Positions 27,939 through 43,811 of a stretch of 64,000 nucleotides of DNA are shown piece by piece. A model generated the notes under the pieces. The model was not told the origin of the DNA, made no database searches, and worked only from the letters and a program-made list of their open reading frames with translations. How positions within the stretch are numbered: the first letter of the stretch is position 1; every line of letters starts with the position of its first letter. The stretch comes from Candidatus Raskinella chloraquaticus (GTDB lineage Bacteria > Pseudomonadota > Alphaproteobacteria > Rhizobiales > UBA4765): contig DEZK01000012.1 in the NCBI GenBank assembly GCA_002365175.1, forward strand, positions 3,330 to 67,329, read 5' to 3'. A program made the translations under genes and the position numbers.

Positions 27939-27958
27939 CTCCTGCACCTATCGTCATT

Positions 27959-27999
27959 GCGGGCGTCAGGACGTCGATCCTGACGCCCGCACCTGTTTT
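27959..27999 (+). terminator. Rho-independent terminator of the MFS gene
   Basis: GCGGGCGTCAGGA-cgtcga-TCCTGACGCCCGC forms a perfect 13-bp stem, followed by ACCTGTTTT. Confidence 0.8.
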
Positions 28000-28349: not shown

Positions 28350-29171
28350 GTGACCGGGATATCCATCCGTTTCTGGGGCGTTGGCGGCTCGATGCCGGCG
28401 CGCGCTTCCAGGCGCCGCATGTTTGGCGTGCAGACATGCTGTTTTGAAATCCGCGCCGGCCATCAGCGTCTTATCATCGATGCCGGCACCGGCATTGCCG
28501 ATCTCGGCCACAGCCTGGCGGACGATGACGCCGCCGCGCTCGACATTCTGCTCACCCATTGTCATTGGGACCATATCTTCGGCTTGACCGGCTTTTCGCC
28601 CATGTTCGCCAGCGGGCGGAAGATCAATCTGCGCTTTGCCGCCCTGTCGGGCGAAAGTCCTGCGGATGTTCTCGATGCCTTGTTCAAGCCGCCCTATTTT
28701 CCGCTTGCCCCGGGTGATCTGCGCAGCACGATTTCACTGCAGACGATCGCGCCTGCAATCCCCTTCACCCTGGATGCCCTGACGGTGCGCCCCATCGCGC
28801 TCAATCATCCAAACGGGGCCAGCGGATTTCGGATCGACAGCAGCGATGCCGCGATCGCCATCATCACCGACCACGAACACGGCGTGGGGGCAATCGATGA
28901 CGAGATCGTCAAGCTGTGCGCCAATGTCGACCTGCTCATCTATGATGCCATGTGGGACGGCGATGTCGACTATCAGGCGCATCGCGGCTGGGGCCATTCG
29001 ACCTGGCAGGCCGGCCTTGACATCCTGCGGCGGGCAGGGGGCAAGCGGCTCGTCTGCGTCCATCACGATCCACGGCTGAGCGATGAGGACCTGTCCGCGC
29101 GCGAAAGGCGGCTGCAGAGCGAGCATCCGGACAGTCTGTTTGCGCGCGAAGGGATGACGTTGAGGACATGA
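28350..29171 (+). CDS. MBL-fold metallo-hydrolase, a candidate class-II-like cyclic-nucleotide phosphodiesterase
   Basis: GTG start. The metal motif is LLTHCHWDHIFGLTGFSP (HxHxDH). It ends 10 nt upstream of the cNMP-binding ABC-type gene. Confidence 0.75.
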   Translation: MTGISIRFWGVGGSMPARASRRRMFGVQTCCFEIRAGHQRLIIDAGTGIADLGHSLADDDAAALDILLTHCHWDHIFGLTGFSPMFASGRKINLRFAALSGESPADVLDALFKPPYFPLAPGDLRSTISLQTIAPAIPFTLDALTVRPIALNHPNGASGFRIDSSDAAIAIITDHEHGVGAIDDEIVKLCANVDLLIYDAMWDGDVDYQAHRGWGHSTWQAGLDILRRAGGKRLVCVHHDPRLSDEDLSARERRLQSEHPDSLFAREGMTLRT

Positions 29172-29181
29172 GCGCAGCGCG

Positions 29182-32100
29182 ATGAAACCATTGTTTGCCT
29201 ATATCTGGGAGCATTCAAGGCGCGAGCAATTGCTTATCCTGCTCGTGGTGCTTCTGTCGTTTCCGTTCTATTTCTATTCGCTCGATCTGCCGAAATATAT
29301 CGTCTCGGACGCCATTCAGGGCCGCGCCTTTGCGGCTGGAAAAACCGAAGCCGTTCTGTTCCATCTGGCGCTGACCCTGCCAGGTTTTCTGGGTGGCGCC
29401 CATGTCGAGCTTTTCTCCGGCATCAGCCTGTCGCGGCTGCCTTATCTCTTTGCCTTGAGCGCGCTCTTCCTGCTGCTTGTCGTTATCAACGGCGTGTTCA
29501 AATATATCATCAATATGCGCAAGGGGGCGCTCGGCGAGCGTCTGCTGCAATATCTGCGCTTTGATCTTTTTTCGCTCCTGCTGCGCTTCTCGCCCGAGGC
29601 TCTGCGCAACGTCAAGGCGTCGGAAGCCGCCACCATCATCAAGGACGAGGTCGAACCCATCGGTGGCTTTGTCGGCGATGCCTTCATTCAACCCGTCTTC
29701 CTCGGTGGTCAGGCGCTGACGGCTCTCACCTTCATCCTCCTGCAAAGCCCGATTCTTGGATTTCTGGCCGGGCTGATTGTCTTTGTTCAGGCAGCCGTCA
29801 TCCCGCGCTTGCGCCGCGAGCAGATACGGCTCGGCAAGGAGCGCCAATTGCGCTCACGCGCCCTGGCCGGGCGTATCGGCGAAGTGGTGGACGGCATCAG
29901 TGAGGTCGGCAATCACGGTACCAGCGCGTTTGAGCGCCAGCGCATCGGCGGCATGCTCGAACAACTCTTCACCATCCGCTACCGGCTCTACGGCCGCAAA
30001 TTCGCAGTCAAATTTGCCAATAATTTGCTGGCCCAGATGACGCCCTTCCTCTTTTACACGCTGGGTGGCGTCGCTGCCCTGCGGGGCGAGATCGATATTG
30101 GTCAGCTGGTCGCTGTCATTGCCGCCTATCGCGAATTGCCGCCACCCGTGAAAGAACTCATCGACTGGGACCAGCAGCGCCTCGATGTCGATGTCAAATA
30201 CCAGCAGGTCGTGGAACAATTCAGCGCCGGCGTGGCGCCGAGCGTCCCATCCCCCTCAACCGCCGACATGCCCGACCTCATCAACGGCTCGATCGTCATC
30301 CAGGGCCTGAAGGTGATGAGCGCAAGTGACGACGTTCTGGTCGATGGCATCAATCTTACTTTGCCGCTTGGCAAGCACGTCGTGCTGGCTGAGCGGGCTG
30401 GCGATGGCGCGCGCACCCTGGCGCAAATCCTTGGCCGCCGCCTCAGCCTGTACACAGGCTCGATCCGCATCAACGGTGCTGATCTGTCAACCCTGCCCGT
30501 CTCGCTCCACGGGCGCCACGTCGCCCACGCCATCCCTGATGCCGCCATCTTCGACGGCAGCATCCGCGACAATCTCATTTACAGTCTGCAGCAGCGGGTC
30601 AACGAGCCCGACATGCATGGTGTTGCGGTGGCGGCGGACTGTGTGGATTATTCACTGGCGGGCGTTGAGGACGCAGCCGGCCTTGATCACGCGATTGGCG
30701 AGGTTCTGCGCGATGTTGGTCTCGACGAGGCGGTCTTCCGCTTTGGTTTGGCCCGCAAGCTTGAGTCCGGTGGCGATGGGCTCGTGGAGCACATGGTGGA
30801 ATTGCGCGGCGATGTGCGCCGTCAACTTGATGAAAGCGGGCTTGCCGCGCTGGTCGAACCCTTCGATGCCGATGCCTACAACGACAATTCGACCATTGGC
30901 GAAAACCTGCTGTTCGGCGTTCCTCTCGGTGAAGCGATGCGTGACACCAACCTCGCCATGTTGCCGTTCACCCGCCAGCTGCTTGATCAATGCGGGTTAA
31001 GCGAAGGCCTGGCGCTGACCGGCCGGCGCATCGCGGTAACGATGGTCGAGATTTTCACCGGCGTCTCGTCCGACCATTTCCTGTTCGAGCAATTCTCCTT
31101 CATTTCGGCCGACGAACTCGACGATTTCCGCGACATGCTGGGCCGCACCGACGGTCCCGTCGCCACGTTCAGCAGCGCCGACCGTGACCGCCTGGTGGCG
31201 CTCGCTTTCCTTTACGTTGAACCGCGGCACCGCCTGGGTCTGCTTGATGCCGCGCTGCGCGACAAGATCCTGTTGGCCCGTCACCAGTTCCGCCGTGGCG
31301 CGCCAAGTGACCTGGCAACCAGCATCGAATTCTACGACAGCGAACGCTATTGCACGGCCGCGCCGCTGCGCGACAACCTGCTCTTTGGACGCATCACCTA
31401 CGGAGCGTCTGGCGCGGCGGAGAAAGTGACAACCGCCATTCGCCAGTTATTGATCAAGCGGGGCTTCGATGTCGCCGTCTTCCGCCTGGGCCTCGAACAG
31501 CCCTGCGGACACGCCGGGCGTCTGCTGTTCCCCGCCCAGCGCAGCGCCATTGCTCTTGCCCGCTGCCTGATGAAACGCCCGGATATTCTGATCATCAACG
31601 AAGGCGTTCTCAACGCCAGCGAACCTGATGGCGCTGCCCTGCTTGAGAGGCTTCGCCGGCGCATGGCGGGCAAGTCCCTGTTTGTCGTCCTGCGTGCCGG
31701 CGACCCGGCAACCGGCTTCGATGCGCGCATCGAGCTTGCCGCGGGCAAAGTCGTCAGTGGCCTTGCTGCCGCCGAACGCGACACGCCCGAACCAGCCGCG
31801 CGCGCCGCCAGTGACAGTGCCGAATTGGGAGCGCTGCAAGCAGTGCCTATGTTCGCTGATGTCGATCTTGCCCGTCTCAAGCTGCTGGCCTTCACCAGCG
31901 AGCGTTTGACCTATCGGGCGGGCGACGTCGTGTTCAGGCAGGGTGATCCATCCGATTCGGCCTATGTTCTGATTTCCGGGAGAGCCGACATCATCATCAA
32001 CACGGCCGACGGCCCGATGACCGTCAACACCGTCAGCCGCGGGGCGATCGTCGGTGAGATCGGTATCATTACCGGTGCGCCCCGTTCCGCAACCATCCGC

Positions 32101-32250
32101 GCGCTTGAGGATATCAGCGTGCTTTGCCTGCGCCAGGATATCTTCCTCAGCCTGATGAGCGAATTCCCTGAAATGTCGCTTGCCGTGACGCGCCTCGTCG
32201 TCCGCCGCCTGCAGGATAACATTGCCACCCTGCAATCACAGCGGCGGTGA
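29182..32250 (+). CDS. ABC-exporter-type membrane protein with a degenerate nucleotide-binding domain and a C-terminal cyclic-nucleotide-binding domain
   Basis: The N-terminal roughly 330 aa is an ABC transmembrane domain. The NBD motifs are altered: AERAGDGART for Walker A, LFPAQRSAIALARCL for LSGGQ, ILIINEG for Walker B. The C-terminal CNB domain reads FRQGDPSDSAYVLISGRADI...GEIGIITGAPRSATIRA. Confidence 0.8.
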   Translation: MKPLFAYIWEHSRREQLLILLVVLLSFPFYFYSLDLPKYIVSDAIQGRAFAAGKTEAVLFHLALTLPGFLGGAHVELFSGISLSRLPYLFALSALFLLLVVINGVFKYIINMRKGALGERLLQYLRFDLFSLLLRFSPEALRNVKASEAATIIKDEVEPIGGFVGDAFIQPVFLGGQALTALTFILLQSPILGFLAGLIVFVQAAVIPRLRREQIRLGKERQLRSRALAGRIGEVVDGISEVGNHGTSAFERQRIGGMLEQLFTIRYRLYGRKFAVKFANNLLAQMTPFLFYTLGGVAALRGEIDIGQLVAVIAAYRELPPPVKELIDWDQQRLDVDVKYQQVVEQFSAGVAPSVPSPSTADMPDLINGSIVIQGLKVMSASDDVLVDGINLTLPLGKHVVLAERAGDGARTLAQILGRRLSLYTGSIRINGADLSTLPVSLHGRHVAHAIPDAAIFDGSIRDNLIYSLQQRVNEPDMHGVAVAADCVDYSLAGVEDAAGLDHAIGEVLRDVGLDEAVFRFGLARKLESGGDGLVEHMVELRGDVRRQLDESGLAALVEPFDADAYNDNSTIGENLLFGVPLGEAMRDTNLAMLPFTRQLLDQCGLSEGLALTGRRIAVTMVEIFTGVSSDHFLFEQFSFISADELDDFRDMLGRTDGPVATFSSADRDRLVALAFLYVEPRHRLGLLDAALRDKILLARHQFRRGAPSDLATSIEFYDSERYCTAAPLRDNLLFGRITYGASGAAEKVTTAIRQLLIKRGFDVAVFRLGLEQPCGHAGRLLFPAQRSAIALARCLMKRPDILIINEGVLNASEPDGAALLERLRRRMAGKSLFVVLRAGDPATGFDARIELAAGKVVSGLAAAERDTPEPAARAASDSAELGALQAVPMFADVDLARLKLLAFTSERLTYRAGDVVFRQGDPSDSAYVLISGRADIIINTADGPMTVNTVSRGAIVGEIGIITGAPRSATIRALEDISVLCLRQDIFLSLMSEFPEMSLAVTRLVVRRLQDNIATLQSQRR

Positions 32251-32263
32251 TCGACGCGCGGCG

Positions 32264-34495
32264 TTACTTGTCGTCCATCGTCGTACTGCCATCCCAATCA
32301 GCAGGTGGTGGCGCAAGCAGCAGGGCGGTAGCCCGCTTGCTATAGACGTCATAAAGCCCGGCAAGCCGCAAAGGTGCTAGCGCGCGCGCCGCGTTCGCCT
32401 TGTCGATGACGGCCTCGAAGCGTCGTTCGCGATAGGCGTCAAGCACCTCGTGATGGGCAAGACGATACGCGGCGAAATCGCCGCGCGCGGCCTCTTCCTC
32501 GCTGCCCATCAGCGTGAAGAGACGCGTTGCCTGCACCTTGCCCTTGAGCCGCACGAGATCGACTTCGATCCACGGCAGGTCAGGCGCGAGATCGTGCGTG
32601 GTCTCCGCCGCCAGCAGATCAACGCCCAGATATTTGGTGGCCCCTTCCAGACGGGAGGCGACGTTGACTTCGTCCCCGATCGCTGAGTAGTCGAACCGCC
32701 GGGTTGACCCGAGATTGCCGACGCAGCACTCGCCCGTGTTCAGTCCGATACCGAAGCGGGCAATCGGGAAATGTCGCCCCTGGGCGCTTGCCTGCGCCTG
32801 CCAGCGCTGGTTCAGTTCCGCCAGCCGGTCGATCATCAAAAGCGCGGTCCGGCCTGCATTGATGGCGTGCTTGTCGTCATCAAGCGGCGCGTTCCAGAAC
32901 GCCATGATGGCGTCCCCCATATATTTGTCGACCGTGCCATTGTGATCGAGGACAAGGTCGGTCATCGGCGTCAGATAATCATTCATGAAGCGCGTCAGTT
33001 CCTGCGCGCTCATGCCTTCGGAGAGCGTGGTGAAGCTGCGCAGATCGCAGAACATGAGGGTGAGCGTGCGGTTCTCTCCGCCAAGGACAAGACGGCTTGG
33101 ATCACCCGCAAGCCGCTCGACGACGGCCGGCGCGACAAAGCGCTCAAAGGCTGAACGCACCTGCCGCTTCTGCGCCTGCTCCTGCCAGTAGAGGCACGAT
33201 AGCCCGGCGAGATAGATGACGCCCCCGGAGGCGCTCGGCACCACCGGGTCAACGAGGATGCCGCCTTGATGAAAAAGGTACCAGCTGCCGCCAACCAGCA
33301 CAGCAACAACGCCAGCCCCGAGAAGGCCAAGGATAATGGCCGGCGTGCGCGGCAGGAACACCATGAAAATGACGCAGGAAAGGATAGCCAGCGCCGCTTC
33401 AGCGCCCAGCGCCCAGTCCGGCCGGCTGAGTTGGCCGCCGGCGATGATGTGCTCGACCAGCTGGGCGTGAACTTCGACACCCGGGATGGTCGCGTCGATA
33501 GGTGTGGTGCGCTGGTCAAGCAGCCCTGCCGCGCTGGAGCCGATGAAGAAAATGCGCCCTTCGATCTCGTCTGGTTTGATCTCGTCGGCGAGGATCTGCC
33601 AGGCCGGCACGAAGCGTCGCGGTTCATGAGCGGAGAACCGCACCCGGACATCGCCGCTTGACCCCGTATCGATCACAAATTGCCCGATCTTGACGGCGTT
33701 GACACCGGTTGCAGCGCCAAAGGCGGTTTCCCCGCTGGCGTTGGATGATTTGACGATGACCGTATCGACGCCCTGCGCCACCCTGAGCGCTTCGGCGGCA
33801 AGTCCAAGAGCTAATTTTCCGCCAACTCCGAGAAGGACCGGCACCCGCCTGATCGTCTGATCGCGATCAGGCAACCAGTTGAGCATGCCGATGCCGCTGG
33901 CCTGCGCCGCGAAGTCGGGCAGTGGCAGAACGGCAGAGGCGAACCGTGGCACGAACTGCGCCGGATCATCGCCCGCCGTTACCCATCCATGCTTTTGCGG
34001 CAAGGTGATCGTGAGCGGCGAGGCGGTGGCAATAGCCCCAAGAACGACGGGCTTGCCGGCGATGGCCGCAGCAAACACCGCATCATTGGTCGGCAGATCA
34101 ACGATATCGCGCGCCACCGCGTCACGTGCAGCCGATGGCGGCAGGAGCGACAATATCTGGTCAGGGCTCGTGCGATCGCCCTCGGCAAGCGCGATGTCGA
34201 AGGCGACCACGGCAGCGCCCATCGCCGACAGCTTGTCGACCAGTTGCGCCATGCGGGTGCGCGGCCAAGGCCACTGGCCGATGCGGGTAAGCGAAGCATC
34301 ATCGATATCGATGATGCGCACCGGGGCGTCCGCATCCCATTGTCGCGGCGACAGGCGCTGGTAGCTGTCGAATACCAGATCGCGCAGCGGCGCGAGGGCG
34401 TGCGGTGCGGCGATCTCGAAAAAGACAATAAGGGCAAAGGGAATGCCGACCGCCAGCCAGTATAATCGGTTCGCGTAGCGCATGCCCGGCTTCAA
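32264..34495 (-). CDS. CHASE2 sensor domain-containing class III adenylate/guanylate cyclase
   Basis: CHASE2 is seen in VRIIDIDDASLTRIGQWPWPRTRMAQLVDKL...AFDIALAE, followed by TM helices. The cyclase core is LTLMFCDLRSFTTLSE...VDKYMGDAIMAFWNAP...GLNTGECCVGNLGS...YSAIGDEVNVASRLE. The TTG start at 34495 overlaps the upstream stop; an ATG at 34483 is an alternative. Confidence 0.9.
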   Translation of the reverse strand: MKPGMRYANRLYWLAVGIPFALIVFFEIAAPHALAPLRDLVFDSYQRLSPRQWDADAPVRIIDIDDASLTRIGQWPWPRTRMAQLVDKLSAMGAAVVAFDIALAEGDRTSPDQILSLLPPSAARDAVARDIVDLPTNDAVFAAAIAGKPVVLGAIATASPLTITLPQKHGWVTAGDDPAQFVPRFASAVLPLPDFAAQASGIGMLNWLPDRDQTIRRVPVLLGVGGKLALGLAAEALRVAQGVDTVIVKSSNASGETAFGAATGVNAVKIGQFVIDTGSSGDVRVRFSAHEPRRFVPAWQILADEIKPDEIEGRIFFIGSSAAGLLDQRTTPIDATIPGVEVHAQLVEHIIAGGQLSRPDWALGAEAALAILSCVIFMVFLPRTPAIILGLLGAGVVAVLVGGSWYLFHQGGILVDPVVPSASGGVIYLAGLSCLYWQEQAQKRQVRSAFERFVAPAVVERLAGDPSRLVLGGENRTLTLMFCDLRSFTTLSEGMSAQELTRFMNDYLTPMTDLVLDHNGTVDKYMGDAIMAFWNAPLDDDKHAINAGRTALLMIDRLAELNQRWQAQASAQGRHFPIARFGIGLNTGECCVGNLGSTRRFDYSAIGDEVNVASRLEGATKYLGVDLLAAETTHDLAPDLPWIEVDLVRLKGKVQATRLFTLMGSEEEAARGDFAAYRLAHHEVLDAYRERRFEAVIDKANAARALAPLRLAGLYDVYSKRATALLLAPPPADWDGSTTMDDK

Positions 34496-35625
34496 GCCCC
34501 TCGTCTGGCGATGTCCGTCTGGCGCAAGGCATCCTTGATCCCGGGTGCGCGCTCGATTACCGCTGCAAGATCACGCTTGGAGAGCGATAACAATTTCGTC
34601 CGGCCCTTTGCATTCACCGTCGCGCTCCGTGGCTCGTCGGTGAGCAGGGCATGTTCACCGAAATAATCACCGCTGTCGAGACGGATCGGTCCCCCTTCGG
34701 TTGCAACCTCGACGCTGCCGCCAAGGATGAAATACATGCGCTCACCCGGTTCGCCACGACGGATGATGACCGCGCCGTCTTCAAATGATTCTGCATTGAG
34801 CTGCTCGGCGATAGCCGCGATGGCGGCGGCCGGCAGGCTCCTGAACAGCGGGACGCGCGCCACCATGTTCCACGTCACCACGAAGCTGCGCTTTGCCAAT
34901 GTCGCGTCAAACGCGGACGCAATGACGCCCATGGGGAGCGCCAGCACGAGAAAGCCGCTGATACTGAGAATGACATAGAGCACTTGCCCGAGGCGGGTAT
35001 CGGGCGTGCTGTCATCGCCGCTGGCACCCGTCACGGTGCTGATCGTCCACCAGATGACACTGGTCAGATGGCCGAATTCCTCTGGCTGACCGGCCCGCTC
35101 AAGCAGGAAAATCGCACTGCCGAAGATCATCCCGATCATGCCAACGATGATGGCGCTGGCAAAGAGGGCTTGGCGACCCAGCATCAGCGCCTGGCCAAGC
35201 GCGCTCAGCATCGGCGAATAACGCACCAGTTTGAGGCAGCGCGGCAGGGCGAGCGCCGTGGCGCGTTCAAGCGAAAGAGAGCCCGTGAGGAAGGCAAGAA
35301 TGCCGGCCAGAATATAAAGATCGAGCAGGGCACCGGCCGATGAGGCATGCATCCATCGCGCCGCGACAGGTCCCATCGCCGCAAAACGGGGATTGTCGGG
35401 TGCCGCCCACAGGCGAAAGCCGTATTCGCTGCCAAGAACGATCAGCATGAGGGTTTCGCTGAAGGGCGGCACCCGGGAGGAAATGCCAAGGTCAGGCTCG
35501 ATTGCCAGAACCAGAATGAGCAGGCTGACGATGATCGAGGCTGCCAGAAAATGATGAAGCCTGCCGCCCCAGGCACCCGCAAGGGCTCCATCCTCCAGCA
35601 ACGTGAAATACTGCGCCCTGGTCAT
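34492..35625 (-). CDS. Cyclic-nucleotide-gated ion-channel homolog (MloK1-like: 6-TM ion-transport domain plus C-terminal CNB domain)
   Basis: The S4-like segment is LPRCLKLVRYSPML. The pore region WWTISTVTGASGDDSTPDT lacks a TxGYG filter. The CNB domain reads GEPGERMYFILGGSVEV...FGEHALLTDEPRSATVNA. The ATG at 35625 is preferred over the TTG at 35658. Confidence 0.85.
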   Translation of the reverse strand: MTRAQYFTLLEDGALAGAWGGRLHHFLAASIIVSLLILVLAIEPDLGISSRVPPFSETLMLIVLGSEYGFRLWAAPDNPRFAAMGPVAARWMHASSAGALLDLYILAGILAFLTGSLSLERATALALPRCLKLVRYSPMLSALGQALMLGRQALFASAIIVGMIGMIFGSAIFLLERAGQPEEFGHLTSVIWWTISTVTGASGDDSTPDTRLGQVLYVILSISGFLVLALPMGVIASAFDATLAKRSFVVTWNMVARVPLFRSLPAAAIAAIAEQLNAESFEDGAVIIRRGEPGERMYFILGGSVEVATEGGPIRLDSGDYFGEHALLTDEPRSATVNAKGRTKLLSLSKRDLAAVIERAPGIKDALRQTDIARRGA

Positions 35626-35688
35626 CGCCACATTCCGGGTTAGCCAGCCGCCAGCCAATAAGGCGACGTCGACAGAAGGGCGCGCCGT

Positions 35689-38133
35689 CTAGCGCCGCGC
35701 CGCAAAGATGCCGGCGGCGTTGTAAACCCCCGGCCCGCTTGGCGGCGTGCCGGTGATGGTAAATTGTCCGCCCTGTTCAAGCGGTGCGGTGCCAGCCCCG
35801 GTATTGGGGCCGAAGAACGAGCCCTGGAGCGATCCGCTGGCAGGGACAGGACTTCCACTCGTGGCGAAACTGCCGTTGAAATTGGCCCGGTTGGCTGAGT
35901 TCAGCGTACTCGTCCCGGCATAATTGCGCTGGTCGAAGGTGAAGGCGAGACTGCCCGTTCCCTGGCCGAAATTGACGGTATGATTGAAGGTGCCGCCCGC
36001 GACGTAATTGGTGCCCGTATTGGTCACAGGCGCGCTGGTACTGCCTGGTCCGAATTGCACGTTGCCGATGATGTGGCCGTTATAGGTAGCACTGCCGGTC
36101 GTCGGGATAAGCGAGCGATCAGACAATTGTCCGGCGACCCACGTCAGAAGATGTCCGCGCTCCTGATCATTGCCGCCACCAGCATTGTCGCGGACCGCGC
36201 GAGTTGACCAGAAGCCCCATTTGGTGAATTCGCACTGGCAAGGCGTGATGTCGGTCGCGGCGATGACAGCCTGTGCCGCTGCCGGATTGGTGCCGGTGAT
36301 CGTATCCCAGCTGGTCAATCCCGATTGAATGTTTCGATAGGTGCCACTGCCGGTGGAACTGATGTAAGGGGCCGGCGAATCGGTTTGGGGGGCCGTTGTG
36401 TTTGGATCGCGGACCGTGCGATCACGAAGGGCAAAGGTATTTGTGTCGATATAGGTGCTGCGCGCTGCCTGTGTCGTGTTGAGATTGCCAAATTGATAGG
36501 TGCCGTTCACCAACCGAGAGCCAGCCGTACGGCTGGCCAGTTGAATATCGGCCGAGGCGCGCGATGTGCCGCCATCTAAAACGAGCGCAACATCGCTGCC
36601 ATCTCCGTTTCGTCCCGTCACAGTCACAAACTGCGTGGCGATGCGATTGCCCGAGGCATCAAATGTTCCCGTCTCCAGGATTCCGCCCGCATAGCCGGCG
36701 AGCGACAGATTTGGTCGGTTTGCTCCAAGGCTGGCGGGAACCGAGGTCGAAGCAACTGATTGAGTGAAGGTATAATTTTGTCCATTGCCAGGTATGGTAC
36801 CACCGAACTGGGAGGCAACATCGGCAACGGGCTGGTTGGCGCGATTGTAATCGTTTTGATCAATGGTCAAAGATACGGGAATGCGGCTGCCATCGCTCGC
36901 TAATTGCACGCTTCCTGGAACAGACGAGATAGCTGAAACCGCGAAGGCTGCTCGTTGTGTTGCTGATTGCCGCGAAGACGCTTGAATCCCGCCATTATAG
37001 ATCGTTTCCTGTCCTGCCGTGAAGAACGCTTCGGTCACGACCGAGAACACCGAGGTCTGCGCTGCGCCGCGCCCGGTGATGCCAAAGCCGACCTGCAGGG
37101 TGCGGATGGTTTCGCTGGAGGCTAAATTGTCAGCACCGCCAACTCTGTAACCAAGAAGGGGCGTGGTGGTAACTTGCGTTGGGCCGACAAAAAGCGCGGT
37201 CAGATAAGGGACAGAGGACCCAGCTCCCGCACTCACACTGTAGGCGAGGGCGCGCGGGGCAAGAGAAGCTTGGATGTTTTGAACAAGTGGCGCTGCTGCT
37301 GTCGTCGTCGATGTTACCTGCGTTGACTGGCGGGTGTCGGTGACGCTTTGATTGGTGGAGCCGGTTTGCTGCGCCACCTGATTGGTCGATTGTGTCGTCG
37401 ACAGCACCACATTTGACTGCGAGCGATCGCCTGCCAGCTGCGTGTTGGCTGTGGTGTCGCTGGGGGGCGTGGCGCTGCCGCCTGTTTGTCCTGACTGGCT
37501 CGTCGTCTGGCCGGTTGCGGTTGCCAGCACCTGCGGGGGGGTGCGTGTTGGCTGCGAGGGCGACTGGCCCTGGCCAACGGTTGTCGTATAGCCCTGCACC
37601 ATCGTCACCGTGCCGCCGGCAAGGCCGGTGACGGTCGCAGAGCCAACGATGCTGGACGTGGTCTGCGTCTGGCTCTGCGGGTTGAACGACGTGGTGGCGA
37701 CCGCCCCGCGCAGGCCGATGGTGGCGACCGGTGTCTTGATTTCGGCATTGCCATTATGGCTGATCTGCCCGCCGACGAAGCGCAGCGCCCCCTTGGCAAG
37801 GCCGATGCTCATTTTGCCGTCGCGCTTTGCTGGATCATAGACGTATTCATTGATCACAACATCGCTGTTGGGGCCGATATTGAGCGTCGATTTATCAAGA
37901 AACACCAGCTGCAGCGAGCCTGCGCCTGAGGTGACAAAGCGCTCCTTGAAGATGACCTGACTGCCTAGCGTCACCTGTTTTGTCCCACCGCCCGGCGGCG
38001 TGCTTTGGGTGAGCGGATTGACCGCGCCGGTGGTGCCGACATTCTGTGCCAACCCGTTGCTGGCAAGCGCACACACGCTCGCCCCCATCAGGAGAACGGC
38101 GTGACGGGTTTTAATCATGGATGAGCTTGCCAT
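35689..38133 (-). CDS. Secreted FecR-domain protein with a T/S/Q-rich linker and a C-terminal TbpB-type (Slam-cargo-like) beta-barrel domain
   Basis: The ATG at 38133 has GGGGAAAG upstream. The signal peptide MASSSMIKTRHAVLLMGASVCALASNGLAQ has no canonical lipobox. The FecR region reads GSQVIFKERFVTSGAGSLQLVFLDKSTLNIGPNSDVVI. The C-terminus reads GSATYNGHIIGNV...FNHTVNFGQGTGSLAF...FNGSF...LQGSFFGPNTGAGTAPLEQGGQFTI...AAGIFAARR. Confidence 0.8.
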   Translation of the reverse strand: MASSSMIKTRHAVLLMGASVCALASNGLAQNVGTTGAVNPLTQSTPPGGGTKQVTLGSQVIFKERFVTSGAGSLQLVFLDKSTLNIGPNSDVVINEYVYDPAKRDGKMSIGLAKGALRFVGGQISHNGNAEIKTPVATIGLRGAVATTSFNPQSQTQTTSSIVGSATVTGLAGGTVTMVQGYTTTVGQGQSPSQPTRTPPQVLATATGQTTSQSGQTGGSATPPSDTTANTQLAGDRSQSNVVLSTTQSTNQVAQQTGSTNQSVTDTRQSTQVTSTTTAAAPLVQNIQASLAPRALAYSVSAGAGSSVPYLTALFVGPTQVTTTPLLGYRVGGADNLASSETIRTLQVGFGITGRGAAQTSVFSVVTEAFFTAGQETIYNGGIQASSRQSATQRAAFAVSAISSVPGSVQLASDGSRIPVSLTIDQNDYNRANQPVADVASQFGGTIPGNGQNYTFTQSVASTSVPASLGANRPNLSLAGYAGGILETGTFDASGNRIATQFVTVTGRNGDGSDVALVLDGGTSRASADIQLASRTAGSRLVNGTYQFGNLNTTQAARSTYIDTNTFALRDRTVRDPNTTAPQTDSPAPYISSTGSGTYRNIQSGLTSWDTITGTNPAAAQAVIAATDITPCQCEFTKWGFWSTRAVRDNAGGGNDQERGHLLTWVAGQLSDRSLIPTTGSATYNGHIIGNVQFGPGSTSAPVTNTGTNYVAGGTFNHTVNFGQGTGSLAFTFDQRNYAGTSTLNSANRANFNGSFATSGSPVPASGSLQGSFFGPNTGAGTAPLEQGGQFTITGTPPSGPGVYNAAGIFAARR

Positions 38134-38144
38134 CGTCTTTCCCC

Positions 38145-39525
38145 TCAGAACCGTAACGTCGGACCGACCACCACCGTCCAATTGTGGTAGCGGAAATTGG
38201 GCAGGGTGGAGGCGTTGTTCTGCAACAAGACCTGAGCCGCAAACCCGAGATTTTCAGTAAGCGGCGCATCAAGCGACAGACCGACGCGGAATTCGCGATC
38301 CCGACGGTTGGTCGCCGGATCAATCAGCTGGTTGGGCAGCCCGTATCGTGTCCAGATCTGGCCGACAGTCGGTGTCAATGTCCAGCGCAAGGGGGCATCA
38401 ATAAACGGCGCGCGGAACTCCCACTGAATGCCGATATCATAGGATTGCTGGACAAAAGCATTATAGGCAAAGAGCGAATTCGTCGCGTTATCGGCATAAG
38501 CGATACGACCAAACACCCTGAGCCCGTCGACGACCGGAACGAGAGCCGATAGCGACCCCGTCGACAGCACGCCCGTCTGCTCTCCAGCGACCGGGAATTT
38601 GTTTGAATTCTCAAAGGCGCGACGCCGCGAATCACCCACCGCTTCGAAGCTCACCCAGGGCGTCGGGATGGTGATGGCCGCGCCATAGCCGGTCGCCGTC
38701 TGGTAGCCCGTGCGGCCGAGACTTGTCACATTCACCAGCCCATAGGGGCGCACCGTCACACCGGGAAAAACATCGGGTGCCACATTGATGCGTGGCCCGG
38801 AGGTAATCTCAACCAGACCGATATCGAATTCAGGGTTGCGGTTCTGGCGTGAGATATAGCCCGACACTGTCGTCTCGAGCGTGTCGCCGCGCCCGTTCTC
38901 GATGGTCTGGACATGGCGCACGCCACCGAGGAAAAAACTGTTCCAGTCATTGCGCCGGCCGAATTGCTGATTGAGCACGGCATCAAAGCCAAGCGCTCTG
39001 ACGTTCAGCGATGATGGCCCGGCATTGACGTTGGACTGATAGCGCGCGCCAGACTGGAAATAGCCTGAAAACTGGCTGGGATTATCGCGACGATCGATCT
39101 CCTGGATGAAGGCCTGGGCGCGCGCGCACTTCTTCCGGCACGCCCTCGCCCTCGACCGCGCTGGTGAAGTAGACGCGTGCCTGGCCGTAGGCTTTGAGCT
39201 TGTAATAAAGAACGCCGAGTTCGAGCCGCACGCGCGACAATTTCGGATTGTAGAAGAGCAGGCGTTCAAGCGCGCCAATCGCCGCTTCGTCCTCGTCAAG
39301 CGCGGCGGCCACCTGGGCAAACCTGAACGACGCGTCAAGATCCGACGGGTTTTTCAGCGTGATCAGAAAGAGTTGTTCGTATTGCTCGCGCGATGGCGGG
39401 GCCGTGGCCGTTTGCGCCTGCGCAGAGGATATCGTGGCAACAACGGCGCACAGGCCGGCCACAAGCCAGTTTCGGTGACCGAACCGGCGCCGTCCCCCAC
39501 CCTGCCTGAAATTTGCAATCACCAT
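38145..39525 (-). pseudogene. Slam-like (surface lipoprotein assembly modifier, DUF560-type) outer-membrane protein with a signal peptide, TPR region and beta-barrel, interrupted by a frameshift at a (GC)5 tract
   Basis: The N-terminal frame (track ORF 39082..39621) gives MVIANFRQGGGRRRFGHRNWLVAGLCAVVATISSAQA plus TPR-like helices and stops just after ...VPEEVRAR. The barrel continues in the +1 frame (track ORF 38145..39338) as AQAFIQEIDRRDNPSQFSGYFQSGARYQSN... and ends ...VVVGPTLRF (terminal aromatic). The junction is at 39116-39127. Confidence 0.7.
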
Positions 39526-40116
39526 GACCACCAAAACTCCGGATGAAGCGGATCGACACATTTCAAAACTCTTCGAAACCGTCTCGGCCTGCAAAAAAGA
39601 CCGCAATGGATCGGATCGCATACAAATTTCGTAAATCCATACTCCAATCCGGGGAAATTGCCTCGTTTCTTACGAAATTGTAAACGCCCGGGCAGGCGCG
39701 GAAAAACTGCTGAAATCGTCGTCAACGTCGAAGTGATGAAAAGTTTGAAGAATTTATAACAACTTACGAGCGTAAATTGAGCGCGCAAGAAATGCCACAC
39801 CTATGACGTAACGGAAGATTTGTGCGAATTGTTGCAAAATAAGCACAATGAATCGAGCCTTCGGCGCAACAAAAAGGGCGGCAAATCGCGACCGGAGCCC
39901 GGCTGTTTGGTCAGCCTGGCCGTATCTCAAGCGGCGTGTTGCTTGACAGCGACACCGGCATACCGTGAAGGCGCTAAAGCGCATATTGCTCTTGCGTTGC
40001 CGGCGCGATCTACTAAAAGTGCTTTTTCATGAGCAAAGGATCAGCCGGATCACCGCATTTGGTTTGTCGTCGTGCCAAGGTTCAGGGCCAAAGTTCAGGA
40101 TAGAGATACGCAACCA

Positions 40117-40722
40117 ATGAAAAAGACAGCCTTTGCGGTTCTGTTGATGTGCCAGCTGATGGTCTTTGGGCGCCCAGTTCATGCAGCCGACCTTCTGAAC
40201 ACCACGCCTGCGCCGCCACCGGCGGCGCCAGTCGCGCTATCGCCCTTTTCCGGCTTCGAGGCCCGCTTCGGCGGTATCGCGCATTCCCTGCTGCACCGCG
40301 CCGAGCAGAGCGCCGACATCAATCTCGAAATCCTCAGCCCGCGCTACGGAAACGCTTCCGGCAATCCCTTTCTTGATTTTGTCATTCGCCCGCGCCTCGT
40401 CGCCGGTGGCAACATCAACCTCGACCGTTTCCGCAATCAGGCTTATGCCGGTCTCGTCTGGACCTTCGACTTCAATGATCGTTTTGCCTTTGAACTGGGC
40501 TGGAACGCTCTCGTCCATGACGGGCCGAACAATCCCGGGGTCGGATCAAACCAGCTTGCCCTGGGTTGCAGTCTCCTTTTTCGTGAATCCTTCGCCTTCA
40601 CCTACAAATTTGCCGATAACTGGAAAGTTGTCGCCTCCTTCGATCACGGTTCGAATGCAGGATTCTGCCGGCGCAATGTCGGCATCAACAATGCCGGCGT
40701 AAAGATCGGCTATACGTTCTAG
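40117..40722 (+). CDS. Acyloxyacyl hydrolase / lipid A 3-O-deacylase (PagL-like) outer-membrane protein
   Basis: Signal peptide MKKTAFAVLLMCQLMVFGRPVHA, catalytic-type FDHGSNAG (HxSN) and C-terminal ...GVKIGYTF. Confidence 0.7.
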   Translation: MKKTAFAVLLMCQLMVFGRPVHAADLLNTTPAPPPAAPVALSPFSGFEARFGGIAHSLLHRAEQSADINLEILSPRYGNASGNPFLDFVIRPRLVAGGNINLDRFRNQAYAGLVWTFDFNDRFAFELGWNALVHDGPNNPGVGSNQLALGCSLLFRESFAFTYKFADNWKVVASFDHGSNAGFCRRNVGINNAGVKIGYTF

Positions 40723-40779
40723 TTTTTGCCATGGCGGCTGAGGTCGGTGATCGGACGCCAGGCCTCGCGATTGCTTCCG

Positions 40780-41133
40780 TCAGGGGGCCATGGTGAGTGC
40801 GAGATTATCGCTGTAGGTATTCACAAGCAGTGTGAACGGGTCGCCTGATCGCAACAAATCGACCTTGAGGCGATTCCAGATAACCTGGTCGCGGATAAGC
40901 CGCGCCACCTCGCGCCCCGGGTCGGTCATGTGCCTGACACGCCACGAGCGATTGCCATCCCAGTCAGAATGCAAAACGATATCGATGGCACCGGCAGCGT
41001 CAAGCTGATGGATGGCGGTGGTTGCGGCAGGTGTATCGAATAACGGGGGCGTTGTTGCCAGCGCCGAGGATCCGAGCTGGTCGGCCTCGGCAATCGCCAA
41101 CAGCGTCAGGCGCGTCATATCCATCTGGTGCAT
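40780..41133 (-). CDS. Hypothetical protein with no recognisable family
   Basis: The roughly 117-aa ORF (MHQMDMTRLTLLAIAEADQLGSS...) has host-like codon usage. The start is ambiguous (GTG 41139, or ATG 41133, 41124 or 41118). Confidence 0.4.
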   Translation of the reverse strand: MHQMDMTRLTLLAIAEADQLGSSALATTPPLFDTPAATTAIHQLDAAGAIDIVLHSDWDGNRSWRVRHMTDPGREVARLIRDQVIWNRLKVDLLRSGDPFTLLVNTYSDNLALTMAP

Positions 41134-41327
41134 TGACACAAGGTATCCTTCCTTGCGGAAAAGCGCAGGTTGAAGCCCTGGTTAAACCAGCTGCGCCCTA
41201 AAGCTGATCTAACCCGTTCATTCAAATGCGTTGCAATCGCCACTTTCCAGCGCTGGCGTGGTTGTTCGCTGGCGCCGCTTCGGCTAAAGCGCGTGCTTCC
41301 TTATACCTTTGAGGGCATCCTGCAGCG

Positions 41328-43088: not shown

Positions 43089-43811
43089 CTATTCACGCCG
43101 CAGGATCTTGTCGACGATGAAGCTGCCGATGGCGGCTGGCTTGAAGGAGGCCTTCAACGCCTTCTGATCATAGACGGTGTCAACCCAGTGCATGAAGTCC
43201 ATCGGTTGCTCGTGCGTGTCGCTGAGATAGCGCGCGAAGAACGCATCGAGCACACCTGTCGGCCCGGCCTTCATATGGCCGTTTCCTGATAATTGGCGCG
43301 CTGCGGCTGCGACCGGTACTCCCTCGCGCAGGATCAGATAAAGCGCCGAGGCGATACCGGCACGATCCGCCCCCGATTTACAATGGAAGAGGGCGGGATA
43401 GGTAATCCGCTCGATGATCGCTTTGAAGGCATGAATCTGTTCGCGGGTCGGCGGGTCGCGCGACCATAGAATGCAGTTCTCGAGGCTGATGCCCCGCCGC
43501 TCGCAGGCCTCCCGCTCAAGCGCGTAGGAGCCAAATTCAGTCGCTCCCCGCAAATTGACGATCGTTCGTATGCCATAGCGCCATTTGAGATAGGCTATCT
43601 GCACGGGGTTGGGCTGCGGACCGCGGACAACCTTGTCGCCTACTTTGGCGACATTCCAGTAGACGGGCCGGATGAAGCCATGATCAGCGAATGTCAGGCT
43701 GAGCCAGGCGCGGATACGCCGCCCCGGGCTGTCGATGGGCTGCGCCCAACGTTGCCGTGCCGCTTCCACGCGGGTGAGGGGCGGTGAGATCTGGCGGTCA
43801 GGCGCGTTCAA
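43089..43811 (-). CDS. Cys-based protein tyrosine/dual-specificity phosphatase family protein
   Basis: The CX5R active site is HCKSGADRAG. The start is TTG, with no in-frame ATG near the 5' end. Confidence 0.75.
   Translation of the reverse strand: MNAPDRQISPPLTRVEAARQRWAQPIDSPGRRIRAWLSLTFADHGFIRPVYWNVAKVGDKVVRGPQPNPVQIAYLKWRYGIRTIVNLRGATEFGSYALEREACERRGISLENCILWSRDPPTREQIHAFKAIIERITYPALFHCKSGADRAGIASALYLILREGVPVAAAARQLSGNGHMKAGPTGVLDAFFARYLSDTHEQPMDFMHWVDTVYDQKALKASFKPAAIGSFIVDKILRRE

What the first reader, a model, noticed from the sequence alone, without database searches (positions are those of the whole stretch)
28350..39525. Two convergent operons form a self-contained cyclic-nucleotide signalling locus: envelope sensor, cyclase, hydrolase and two cNMP-binding membrane effectors
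Seen in sequence: on the minus strand four genes run head to tail with gaps of about 11, about 63 and -4 nt. They are a Slam-like OMP, a secreted FecR/TbpB-barrel protein, a CNB-domain ion channel and a CHASE2 class III cyclase. Thirteen nt from the cyclase stop, a plus-strand pair converges: an MBL hydrolase followed 10 nt later by a 1022-aa ABC-type protein ending in a CNB domain. Both CNB domains keep the phosphate-binding Arg context (PRSAT). Established knowledge: CHASE2 is an extracytoplasmic sensor domain, class III cyclases make cAMP/cGMP, and CNB domains bind them. Inference: the locus encodes signal capture at the envelope, second-messenger synthesis, probable degradation and two membrane outputs, with no Crp-type transcription factor in the set. 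From memory, CHASE2 cyclases (CyaD1/CyaD2/CyaK) in Sinorhizobium meliloti need an outer-membrane beta-barrel protein (NsrA) to perceive a plant signal. This locus could be a more elaborate relative. I am not aware of this full combination having been described.
Basis: partly seen in the sequence, partly recalled or inferred. Interest (0 to 1): 0.85.

Follow-up and report, generated by a model that had tools for sequence, protein, structure and literature searches.

The report
Envelope-sensing cAMP locus with secretion-type sensor
This is a real gene cluster in a soil-type alphaproteobacterium that most likely senses something outside the cell and answers with cyclic AMP; its core was already noted in other bacteria, but its sensor pair here looks like a protein-export system (Slam/type 11 secretion) and its cargo.

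Summary
HMMs support CHASE2, class III cyclase, both cNMP-binding domains, Ion_trans, FecR, the MBL fold and an ABC membrane domain.

One point was missed. The outer-membrane protein (OMP) gene is broken in this window by loss of one CG unit in a (CG)n run. A 99.96%-identical sister assembly and a 94%-identical MAG have it intact.

The OMP models as a TPR domain plus a 14-strand barrel. The "FecR/TbpB" protein models as a FecR domain, a roughly 90-residue disordered linker and a TbpB-like body. This resembles a type 11 secretion (Slam) OMP with its cargo.

- OMP and cargo are adjacent in 11 of 11 and 33 of 39 independent loci.
- A CHASE2 cyclase flanks them in 7 of 11 and 6 of 34.
- The MBL gene and the ABC-cNMP gene recur beside this cyclase type in a relative whose cargo is 38% identical.
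- ABC-cNMP homologues sit next to class III cyclases far more often than expected (24 observed, 3.2 expected).

S. meliloti NsrA is FecR+TPR+barrel next to CyaK, so it is an analogue, not an orthologue. A CHASE2 cyclase, phosphodiesterase, FecR OMP and TPR cluster was already noted in Campylobacterota in 2022.

Verdict: real and coherent, a new variant of a known kind.

The parts
38145..39525 (-). Outer-membrane protein: signal peptide, periplasmic TPR domain and a 14-strand beta-barrel (Slam/type 11 secretion-like). It is interrupted in this window by a 2-nt deletion in a (CG)n run at about 39117-39129. The intact form is 460 aa counted from M33.
   Evidence: Two overlapping frames. Intact in L089 and L008. 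AF2 pLDDT 89, helices 46-148 and 14 long strands 151-459. Nearest solved folds are BcsC, PelBC, CymA, FadL and OmpG. Orthologue L003 hits PF04575 SlipAM at 26.7 bits against a cutoff of 22. SlipAM hits 4 of 50 family members and TPR_Slam 14 of 50.
35689..38133 (-). Secreted 814-aa protein: Sec-type signal peptide, FecR domain (about nt 37666-37935), a disordered S/T/Q-rich linker of about 90 residues, and a TbpB-like beta-rich body ending in an 8-strand barrel (about nt 35761-36108). Candidate cargo of the OMP.
   Evidence: Pfam FecR 6.9e-8 and TbpB_B_D 7.8e-5. NCBIfam slam_lipo 1.7e-9. AF2 pLDDT about 90 for residues 290-814, disordered 207-288. Foldseek matches TbpB 2e-7, PupR cell-surface signalling domain 2.6e-6, HphA, LbpB, fHbp and hemophilin. 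The linker is kept in 31 of 31 homologues.
34492..35625 (-). Six-TM cyclic-nucleotide-gated channel of the MloK1 type with a C-terminal cNMP-binding domain (about nt 34549-34791). It has a non-canonical pore filter, TVTGASGDD.
   Evidence: Pfam Ion_trans 3.4e-13 and cNMP_binding 1.1e-18. PDB 2zd9 MloK1 3e-43, with the filter aligned to TLSTTGYGD. The filter is identical in L008.
32264..34495 (-). Membrane receptor cyclase: periplasmic CHASE2 (about nt 33368-34423), transmembrane helices, and a class III catalytic domain (about nt 32537-33067) of adenylate-cyclase type.
   Evidence: Pfam CHASE2 5.1e-53 and Guanylate_cyc 7.1e-16. The best solved relatives are adenylate cyclases, CyaB 3r5g at 1e-31 and CyaC 1wc1 at 5e-30, with the metal-binding Asp residues, Lys, Asn and Arg aligned.
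28350..29171 (+). MBL-fold metallo-hydrolase of the RNase Z/PhnP/Apyc1-like phosphodiesterase branch. Candidate cNMP phosphodiesterase.
   Evidence: Lactamase_B_2 3.8e-19. HCHWDH motif. NF041851 'cyclic nucleotide-degrading phosphodiesterase' 2.5e-13 but 50 bits against a cutoff of 400; RNase Z 7e-17. Family profile against PDB: RNase Z 2e-15, PhnP 1.7e-7, Apyc1 0.004. Homologues lie next to cyclase or ABC-cNMP genes in L001, L091, L021, L033, L037, L040, L044 and L077.
29182..32250 (+). 1022-aa membrane protein: ABC-exporter-type transmembrane domain, a degenerate and split nucleotide-binding domain (insert of about 300 aa), and a C-terminal cNMP-binding domain (about nt 31906-32163).
   Evidence: Pfam. 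Walker A ERAGDGART, signature LFPAQ and Walker B ILIINE, against GRSGAGKST, LSGGE and ILLLDE in the canonical ABC at 41328..43085. The degeneracy is conserved in the family consensus. More than 565 genome loci encode relatives.
27958..27991 (+). Terminator-like hairpin (14 pairs) after the upstream MFS gene. It marks the left boundary of the MBL/ABC-cNMP operon.

Best explanation
The locus is a cis-encoded cAMP signalling unit with an envelope-spanning sensor.

Shown:
- The domains and the gene layout.
- The conservation of gene neighbourhoods.

Inferred:
1. The OMP (TPR plus 14-strand barrel) handles the adjacent secreted protein in the way Slam/type 11 secretion OMPs handle TbpB- or hemophilin-type cargo.
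2. The TbpB-like body is presented at, or released from, the cell surface, where it captures an unknown ligand.
3. The FecR domain is joined to it by a conserved flexible linker of about 90 residues. It stays in or returns to the periplasm and contacts the CHASE2 domain of the inner-membrane cyclase. FecR domains do this with outer-membrane transducers in Fec/Pup signalling, and the FecR-TPR-barrel protein NsrA is proposed to do it for CyaK.
4. Ligand state changes cAMP synthesis.
5. cAMP is read directly at the membrane by an MloK1-type channel with an unusual pore and by a non-hydrolytic ABC-fold protein. Both carry an intact phosphate-binding Arg.
6. The MBL phosphodiesterase resets the signal.
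For: - Domain HMMs.
- The cyclase is closest to solved adenylate cyclases and keeps the catalytic residues.
- The channel matches MloK1 at 3e-43.
- OMP model: TPR plus 14 strands at pLDDT 89.
- The cargo model matches TbpB, HphA, LbpB, fHbp and hemophilin, all known Slam cargo. Its N-terminal domain matches the PupR cell-surface signalling domain (rmsd 2.8 over 140 residues).
- The OMP is directly upstream of the cargo in 11 of 11 curated loci and in 33 of 39 evaluable metagenome loci.
- A CHASE2 cyclase directly flanks the pair in 7 of 11 and 6 of 34 loci.
- Different cNMP-binding effectors appear in cis in different genomes: ABC-cNMP (window, L001), patatin-cNMP (Paracoccus), and an NHLP exporter with a cNMP-binding protein (Shinella and Ensifer).
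- The MBL lies beside or overlapping the cyclase in three arrangements.
- ABC-cNMP genes are enriched next to cyclases, 24 observed against 3.2 expected, P about 1e-13.
- NsrA has FecR, TPR and a barrel and overlaps the start of cyaK (PMC7529298).
- FecR proteins sit beside other CHASE2 proteins (PMC5192318, PMC5498481, PMC9239204).
- The linker is conserved as a feature in 31 of 31 homologues.
Against: - The OMP is frameshifted in this very sequence.
- The window OMP gives no SlipAM hit, and only 4 of 50 relatives do. No solved Slam structure was available for comparison.
- In known type 11 secretion the whole cargo is thought to reach the surface. That would put FecR outside the cell, away from CHASE2.
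- Many OMP-cargo pairs have no adjacent cyclase (4 of 11 and 28 of 34). The pair can therefore function without a cis cyclase.
- Six loci have a cargo without a detectable OMP.
- The channel gene is found only in this lineage.
- The MBL scores no better against cNMP phosphodiesterases than against RNase Z.
- Nothing here was measured experimentally.
Confidence: 0.6

Rival explanations
1. The OMP-cargo pair is an ordinary type 11 secretion system for nutrient capture or adhesion. The TbpB- or hemophilin-like protein would bind a metal, haem or host molecule. It happens to lie next to, or is merely regulated by, a cAMP module, and does not act as the cyclase's sensor.
For: The body has a TbpB/HphA/fHbp-like fold. 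Most OMP-cargo pairs lack an adjacent cyclase. The family is very large, with 1,886 cluster representatives at E<=1e-30.
Against: Every full-length member carries a FecR domain, which is a periplasmic signalling and interaction domain. No TonB-dependent receptor is adjacent in the loci examined. When a CHASE2 cyclase is present it directly flanks the pair, far above the roughly 1% expected by chance. FecR proteins pair with CHASE2 proteins in unrelated systems (PMC5192318, PMC5498481).
Confidence: 0.2
2. The two convergent operons are functionally unrelated neighbours. MBL and ABC-cNMP would belong to another pathway.
For: Only 13 nt separate the convergent stops, with no shared promoter. Most ABC-cNMP homologues (Bosea, Microvirga and others) have no OMP, cargo or CHASE2 nearby. 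The MBL is adjacent in only about 8 of 81 ABC-cNMP loci.
Against: The same pair sits convergent on the same type of cyclase in L001, at 38-52% protein identity and with internal order swapped. An MBL homologue overlaps the cyclase gene in Ensifer. ABC-cNMP genes are strongly enriched next to class III cyclases of many architectures.
Confidence: 0.07
3. The locus is a Pycsar-like anti-phage system. A cyclase would make a cyclic nucleotide on infection, and membrane effectors with cNMP-binding domains would kill or arrest the cell.
For: PADLOC gives PycC hits for the cyclase domain (8.3e-27) and Pycsar-effector hits for both cNMP-binding domains. Apyc1-type MBL enzymes degrade such signals.
Against: The hits cover only the generic class III and cNMP-binding domains. 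The cyclase has an extracytoplasmic CHASE2 sensor and adenylate-cyclase-type relatives. One effector is a clear MloK1 homologue. There are no PADLOC hits for the MBL or the cargo. The sensor module is conserved with non-defence effectors.
Confidence: 0.03
4. In this organism the sensor arm is inactive. The OMP frameshift is real, so the cargo is not exported and the locus is decaying or phase-variable.
For: A 2-nt contraction of a (CG)n run splits the OMP gene. Such repeats are prone to slippage.
Against: A 99.96%-identical assembly from another sample has the intact gene, and all other genes are intact. An assembly or sequencing error at a GC-rich repeat is equally likely.
Confidence: 0.1

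Closest known systems
NsrA-CyaK (with CyaD1/D2) cAMP signalling of Sinorhizobium meliloti
   Same: A CHASE2 adenylate cyclase is immediately preceded by envelope protein(s) carrying a FecR domain, TPR repeats and an outer-membrane beta-barrel (PMC7529298, PMC13001267). The signal is perceived at the outer membrane and the output is cAMP.
   Different: NsrA is one 1219-aa polypeptide. Here the modules are split between two proteins, and the FecR protein has an added TbpB-like body. Only the FecR part aligns (hhalign probability 59%). The barrels show no detectable similarity. The S. meliloti output is the Crp-type regulator Clr, whereas here it is a membrane channel and an ABC-fold protein.
Conserved cluster of CHASE2 adenylate cyclase, cAMP phosphodiesterase, FecR-domain OMP and TPR protein, noted in Campylobacterota (PMC9239204, mBio 2022)
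   Same: The same four component types are clustered, and that paper also proposes that they form one pathway spread by horizontal transfer.
   Different: Homology to those proteins was not tested here. That paper gives no structure, no link to secretion systems and no cis-encoded cNMP-binding effectors.
Slam / type 11 secretion OMP with TbpB-, hemophilin- or fHbp-type cargo
   Same: A TPR domain plus a 14-strand barrel OMP lies directly upstream of a Sec-dependent protein that ends in a TbpB-type 8-strand barrel. The cargo has a soluble-type signal peptide, as hemophilin-class cargo does.
   Different: The OMP is at the edge of PF04575 detection. The cargo has an N-terminal FecR domain, which is absent from the roughly ten cargo architectures catalogued (PMC12282271). 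Known systems serve metal or haem acquisition or immune evasion, not second-messenger signalling.
FecA-FecR-FecI / PupB-PupR cell-surface signalling
   Same: The cargo's FecR-type domain is structurally similar to the PupR C-terminal cell-surface signalling domain. The logic of passing an outer-membrane event to an inner-membrane transducer is also shared.
   Different: There is no TonB-dependent transducer, no anti-sigma transmembrane segment and no ECF sigma factor. The proposed inner-membrane partner is a CHASE2 cyclase.
MloK1 (MlotiK1) cyclic-nucleotide-gated K+ channel of Mesorhizobium loti
   Same: Six-TM pore module plus a C-terminal cNMP-binding domain, 3e-43 to PDB 2zd9, with the PRSAT phosphate-binding cassette.
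   Different: The selectivity filter is TVTGASGDD rather than TTGYGD, so K+ selectivity is doubtful.
LysM-FecR protein with a CHASE2 histidine kinase ('BiofilmReg' operon, Burkholderia; PMC5192318), and cNMP-regulated NHLP bacteriocin exporters
   Same: A periplasmic FecR-domain protein is encoded next to a CHASE2 sensor. ABC-type membrane proteins are coupled to cNMP-binding domains near cyclases.
   Different: The output is a histidine kinase rather than a cyclase. The NHLP exporters have intact ATPase motifs and a separate cNMP-binding protein.

Membership tests
Slam / type 11 secretion OMP (DUF560, PF04575 SlipAM) | N-terminal periplasmic TPR domain | tested here: met
   TPR_9/16/19 hits. 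TPR_Slam PF24575 hits 14 of 50 relatives. AF2 helices 46-148.
Slam / type 11 secretion OMP (DUF560, PF04575 SlipAM) | C-terminal 14-strand beta-barrel | tested here: met
   AF2 pLDDT 89 with 14 long strands between residues 151 and 459. Best solved folds include the 14-strand barrels CymA, FadL and OmpG.
Slam / type 11 secretion OMP (DUF560, PF04575 SlipAM) | Sequence match to PF04575 above the curated cutoff | tested here: inconclusive
   The window OMP (repaired) has no hit even at E<=10. Orthologue L003 scores 26.7 bits against a cutoff of 22, and L001 scores 17 bits. 4 of 50 relatives hit at E<0.01.
Slam / type 11 secretion OMP (DUF560, PF04575 SlipAM) | Gene adjacent to a cargo gene with a TbpB-type barrel | tested here: met
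   11-nt gap in the window. Adjacent in 11 of 11 curated and 33 of 39 metagenome loci.
Slam / type 11 secretion OMP (DUF560, PF04575 SlipAM) | OMP-dependent surface exposure or secretion of the cargo | not testable with these tools
   Needs a co-expression and shaving or secretion assay.
Type 11 secretion cargo (TbpB / hemophilin / fHbp class) | C-terminal 8-strand barrel of TbpB_B_D or lipoprotein-C type | tested here: met
   Sequence evidence is sub-threshold: PF01298 23.6 bits against 26 and NF041636 38 bits against 80. Some homologues carry PF01298 or PF08794. Structural evidence is clear: TbpB 2e-7, TbpB C-lobe, HphA, LbpB, fHbp, hemophilin and NHBA.
Type 11 secretion cargo (TbpB / hemophilin / fHbp class) | Sec or lipoprotein signal peptide | tested here: met
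   By inspection of the sequence: MASSSMIKTRHAVLLMGASVCALASNGLAQ, followed by the conserved N/V-G-T, with no conserved lipobox Cys in the alignment. No predictor was run.
NsrA family (S. meliloti) | FecR, TPR and beta-barrel in a single outer-membrane polypeptide | tested here: not met
   The modules are split between two proteins.
NsrA family (S. meliloti) | Sequence homology beyond shared domain types | tested here: not met
   hhalign finds FecR only (probability 59%, E 9e-5) and TPR only (12%). The barrel does not align.
NsrA family (S. meliloti) | Encoded next to a CHASE2 adenylate cyclase | tested here: met
CHASE2 class III adenylate cyclase | CHASE2 and Guanylate_cyc domains with catalytic residues | tested here: met
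   5.1e-53 and 7.1e-16. Alignment to CyaB and CyaC keeps FxDxxxFT, K..GD and D/S..IG..VN.A.RLE. The product nucleotide was not measured.
MloK1-type cyclic-nucleotide-gated K+ channel | Six-TM pore module plus C-terminal cNMP-binding domain with the phosphate-binding Arg | tested here: met
   2zd9 at 3e-43; PRSAT present.
MloK1-type cyclic-nucleotide-gated K+ channel | Canonical K+ selectivity filter T-x-G-Y-G-D | tested here: not met
   TVTGASGDD aligned to TLSTTGYGD, conserved in L008.
ABC exporter (MsbA-like half-transporter) | ABC_membrane transmembrane domain | tested here: met
   PF00664 36.1 bits against a cutoff of 28.
ABC exporter (MsbA-like half-transporter) | Catalytic Walker A Lys, LSGGQ signature and Walker B Asp | tested here: not met
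   ERAGDGART, LFPAQ and ILIINE, against GRSGAGKST, LSGGE and ILLLDE. The family consensus is also degenerate.
MBL-fold cyclic-nucleotide phosphodiesterase (class II PDE / Apyc1-like) | HxHxDH and downstream metal ligands | tested here: met
   HCHWDH, LNHP, GWGHS and HHDP are invariant in the family alignment.
MBL-fold cyclic-nucleotide phosphodiesterase (class II PDE / Apyc1-like) | Family-level sequence match | tested here: inconclusive
   PF02112 13.5 bits against 23.7. NF041851 50 bits against 400, with RNase Z scoring higher. Family profile against PDB: RNase Z 2e-15, PhnP 1.7e-7, Apyc1 0.004. The source's precomputed Pfam lists PF23023 Apyc1 as weak.
Pycsar anti-phage system | Dedicated PycC cyclase with an adjacent cNMP-binding effector that causes abortive infection | tested here: inconclusive
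   Only generic domain hits. A CHASE2 sensor and an MloK1-type effector argue against membership. Defence was not testable.

The most novel reading that the evidence does not exclude
A type 11 secretion-like OMP does not simply release its cargo. It holds a TbpB-like receptor at the cell surface while the cargo's N-terminal FecR domain stays in the periplasm. A conserved flexible linker of about 90-130 residues passes through or alongside the barrel and connects the two. The pair would then be an outer-membrane-spanning signalling tether that switches a CHASE2 adenylate cyclase. That would be cell-surface signalling with cAMP as output instead of an ECF sigma factor. NsrA would be the fused, receptor-less version of the same device.
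Probability: 0.25. Interest if true: 0.85.

Novelty: new variant of a known kind. Interest (0 to 1): 0.58.

Why it matters
CHASE2 is a widespread sensor domain, and what it senses and how remain unknown. The only studied case, NsrA with CyaK/CyaD in S. meliloti, lacks a mechanism.

If the FecR proteins beside CHASE2 cyclases are TbpB-like cargo of Slam-type OMPs, three things follow:
- There is a concrete, testable route from an extracellular ligand to cAMP.
- Type 11 secretion gains a signalling role in free-living soil bacteria, beyond nutrient capture in pathogens.
- A very large unannotated family gets a working hypothesis. It has 1,886 cluster representatives and is currently labelled only "FecR domain-containing" or "TPR protein".

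The cis-encoded effectors also show cAMP acting directly at the membrane without a Crp-type regulator. One is a channel with a non-K+ filter and the other is a catalytically dead ABC-fold protein.

Tried and rejected
- Sequence search of the OMP family profile against PDB found only TPR proteins. Foldseek found generic 14- to 16-strand barrels and no Slam entry. A direct structural membership test was therefore impossible.
- The afdb50 fold library was unavailable.
- NsrA as an orthologue was rejected. Only FecR, and weakly TPR, align.
- The NsrA paper itself (PMC5952392) is not held. The NsrA domain content was derived from the pSymB sequence and from PMC7529298.
- The Pycsar reading was rejected as generic domain cross-hits.
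- The MBL could not be assigned as a cNMP phosphodiesterase by sequence. RNase Z, PhnP and Apyc1 all score at a similar superfamily level.
- Looser HMM thresholds did not recover an OMP in six metagenome loci that lack one.
- The type 11 secretion cargo papers contain no mention of FecR, CHASE2 or cyclase. Neither DUF560+FecR nor Slam+cyclase searches found relevant work.
- cNMP-binding hits near OMP-cargo pairs (4 of 34 loci) were not treated as evidence. Crp/Fnr-type proteins are common in the background.

Full report
**Source and layout**

The window is identical to JGI metagenome contig 3300011927 Ga0119947_100002. Its closest named relative is a Hyphomicrobiales MAG, JAIEPZ010000004.1, at 94% nucleotide identity over 23 kb with all six genes syntenic.

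- On the + strand, a 273-aa gene (28350..29171) is followed after 10 nt by a 1022-aa gene (29182..32250).
- Thirteen nt beyond its stop, the - strand operon ends.
- Read 5' to 3', that operon is OMP (..38145), an 11-nt gap, an 814-aa secreted protein (38133..35689), a 63-nt gap, a channel (35625..34492), a 4-nt overlap, and a 743-aa cyclase (34495..32264).
- A strong hairpin at 27958-27991 closes the upstream MFS gene.

**Domain checks**

Pfam supports the following:
- Lactamase_B_2 (3.8e-19).
- ABC_membrane (7.7e-9), a partial ABC_tran, and cNMP_binding (1.6e-22).
- CHASE2 (5.1e-53) and Guanylate_cyc (7.1e-16).
- Ion_trans (3.4e-13) and cNMP_binding (1.1e-18).
- FecR (6.9e-8).
- TbpB_B_D, sub-threshold at 7.8e-5.

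NCBIfam adds "Slam-dependent surface lipoprotein" for cargo residues 669-794 (1.7e-9, below cutoff). Both cNMP-binding domains read PRSAT.

The cyclase catalytic domain is closest to solved adenylate cyclases, P. aeruginosa CyaB at 1e-31 and Spirulina CyaC at 5e-30. The metal-binding aspartates, the Lys, and the Asn and Arg positions are all aligned.

The channel is a clear MloK1 homologue (3e-43). Its pore reads TVTGASGDD where MloK1 has TLSTTGYGD, and this is conserved in the MAG orthologue.

The OMP is not one ORF here.
- A 179-aa frame carries the signal peptide and TPR. A second frame carries the barrel.
- The cause is loss of one CG unit in a CG run at about 39117-39129. A second JGI assembly (L089) has (CG)5 and an intact 492-aa ORF. 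It differs from the window by 3 mismatches plus this indel over 13.6 kb.
- The MAG is also in frame.
- Whether this is an assembly error or a real slippage variant cannot be decided without reads.

**The OMP-cargo pair**

The OMP:
- The repaired OMP has no SlipAM hit of its own.
- A 46%-identical orthologue passes the Pfam cutoff (26.7 bits against 22). In a set of 50 relatives, 4 hit SlipAM and 14 hit TPR_Slam.
- AlphaFold2 gives pLDDT 89, with TPR helices 46-148 and 14 long strands.
- No Slam structure is in PDB. The nearest folds are BcsC, PelBC, CymA, FadL and OmpG.

The cargo:
- The model has a FecR domain (residues 62-187), a disordered stretch (207-288) and a confident beta-rich body (290-814, pLDDT about 90).
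- Foldseek returns full-length TbpB (2e-7, about 540 columns), HphA, LbpB N-lobe, fHbp, hemophilin and NHBA. These are the known Slam/type 11 secretion cargo.
- For the N-terminal domain it returns the PupR cell-surface signalling domain (2.6e-6, rmsd 2.8 over 140 residues) and an anti-sigma FecR protein.
- All 31 full-length homologues keep a linker of 87-133 residues that is 64-84% S/T/Q/A/P/G/N.
- The family is large, with 1,886 50%-identity cluster representatives at E<=1e-30.
- The type 11 secretion cargo surveys do not mention FecR, CHASE2 or cyclases.

**Neighbourhood conservation**

Eleven independent lineages were examined gene by gene.
- The OMP is directly upstream of the cargo in all eleven.
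- A CHASE2 cyclase directly flanks the pair in seven: the window lineage, L001, Tardiphaga L005, R. palustris L006, L095, Paracoccus pAMI5 L092 and Shinella L093.
- It is absent in four.

Eighty metagenome loci were also scanned.
- The OMP precedes the cargo in 33 of 39 evaluable cases.
- A CHASE2 cyclase is present in 6 of 34 loci with at least 3 kb of flank.

The pair is therefore a tight unit. Its link to a cyclase is frequent, and far above the roughly 1% expected by chance, but it is not obligatory.

**The second operon**

L001 has a cargo 38%, a cyclase 50%, an ABC-cNMP protein 52% and an MBL 43% identical to the window's. There the MBL and ABC-cNMP genes again converge on the cyclase, but in swapped order, and there is no channel.

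On an Ensifer plasmid, an MBL 34% identical to the window's (5e-48) overlaps the 3' end of a CHASE2 cyclase. That cyclase sits beside a small FecR protein, a TPR protein and an NHLP exporter with a cNMP-binding protein.

Other cyclase loci carry other cNMP-binding effectors: patatin-cNMP in Paracoccus and an NHLP exporter in Shinella.

Across 79 species-level loci that encode ABC-cNMP homologues:
- A class III cyclase domain lies within 2.5 kb 24 times, against 3.2 expected from the density further out (P about 1e-13).
- Those cyclases have many architectures.

The ABC-fold protein lacks the Walker A Lys, the LSGGQ signature and the Walker B Asp. It also has an insert of about 300 residues, and all these features are conserved in the family. 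It is unlikely to be an ATPase.

The MBL keeps all metal ligands. By sequence it is no closer to cNMP phosphodiesterases than to RNase Z or PhnP. Its substrate is inferred from context.

**Comparison with known systems**

On S. meliloti pSymB, the ORF that overlaps the start of the CHASE2 cyclase cyaK is 1219 aa long. It has FecR (2.3e-15), TPR repeats and an unassigned C-terminal half. PMC7529298 places the NsrA barrel at residues 600-1200.

The NsrA analogy therefore holds at the level of domain types. Only FecR aligns to the window cargo, and nothing aligns to the barrel.

FecR proteins also sit beside CyaD1 (PMC5498481) and beside CHASE2 histidine kinases (PMC5192318).

A 2022 survey had already noted a conserved cluster of CHASE2 adenylate cyclase, cAMP phosphodiesterase, FecR-domain OMP and TPR protein in Campylobacterota and beyond (PMC9239204). 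The core is thus known as a cluster, though uncharacterised.

Three things appear new in the literature I could search:
- The secretion-system character of the sensor pair.
- The TbpB-like body of the FecR protein.
- The two membrane effectors encoded in cis.

**Mechanism**

The best-supported reading (confidence about 0.6) is an envelope sensor, formed by the OMP and its FecR/TbpB-like partner, that controls a CHASE2 adenylate cyclase. cAMP would then act directly on a channel and on an ABC-fold membrane protein, and the MBL enzyme would degrade it.

Where the FecR domain sits, inside or outside the outer membrane, is the key unknown. The tether model is attractive but unproven (probability about 0.25).

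The rivals are:
- an independent nutrient or adhesin secretion pair (0.2);
- a locally inactivated sensor arm (0.1, and not exclusive of the others);
- a chance juxtaposition of the two operons (0.07);
- a Pycsar-like defence system (0.03).

Noticed in passing
window 39117-39129 (- strand); L089 8975-8990: The (CG)4 run in the window against (CG)5 in a 99.96%-identical assembly from another sample. This one-unit change decides whether the OMP gene is intact. It could be an assembly error or slipped-strand variation.
   Followed up: partly
L024 13169-14896; L042 13219-14916; L053 13255-14997; L071 3302-5014; L073 12705-14396: In many alphaproteobacteria the ABC-cNMP gene is followed directly by a 565-580-aa protein. 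It combines a multi-TM N-terminal domain (LNHAxGIFG motif), a 2Fe-2S ferredoxin-like CGGRGRCSTCRV motif and a class III cyclase. This is a recurrent, apparently uncharacterised redox-cyclase and effector pair.
   Followed up: partly
window 34990-35020 (channel pore, - strand): The MloK1-type channel has TVTGASGDD in place of the K+ filter TTGYGD. The change is conserved in the 94%-identical orthologue, which suggests altered ion selectivity.
   Followed up: partly
window 29182-32250: The ABC-fold protein has lost the Walker A Lys, the LSGGQ signature and the Walker B Asp, and carries an insert of about 300 aa in the nucleotide-binding domain. Even so it belongs to a large, well-conserved family (more than 565 genome loci). 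It is a conserved pseudo-ATPase.
   Followed up: partly
L073 and L080 (JBNOAI010000008.1 and JBNOAI010000006.1, labelled Leptospira interrogans LS0056): Contigs labelled Leptospira interrogans encode ABC-cNMP proteins 47% and 42% identical to the window's. One of them, L073, also has an alphaproteobacterial-type ferredoxin-cyclase neighbour; no cyclase was found in the L080 flanks. Contamination of that assembly is likely.
   Followed up: no
L005 12365-12781; L006 11766-12164; L095 14061-14426: A small ORF of 121-138 aa with no Pfam hit lies on the opposite strand between cargo and cyclase in three distant loci. It is absent from the window, where the channel gene occupies that position.
   Followed up: no
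window 40072-43811: Next to the locus are a PagL-like lipid A deacylase (40072..40722), a canonical MsbA-like ABC exporter (41328..43085) and a PTP-like phosphatase (43089..43811). This outer-membrane lipid theme may or may not be related.
   Followed up: no
L150 and L156 (Ga0209930 contigs of 392 kb and 290 kb), L108, L121, L148, L172: Six cargo homologues, including Nitrobacter-type ones of about 580 aa, have no detectable OMP upstream even at a permissive HMM threshold. L156 has an unrelated 339-aa ORF there.
   Followed up: partly
L001 19654-20844: A phage-type integrase lies about 1 kb beyond the ABC-cNMP gene in the distant syntenic locus. The module may travel on a genomic island.
   Followed up: no
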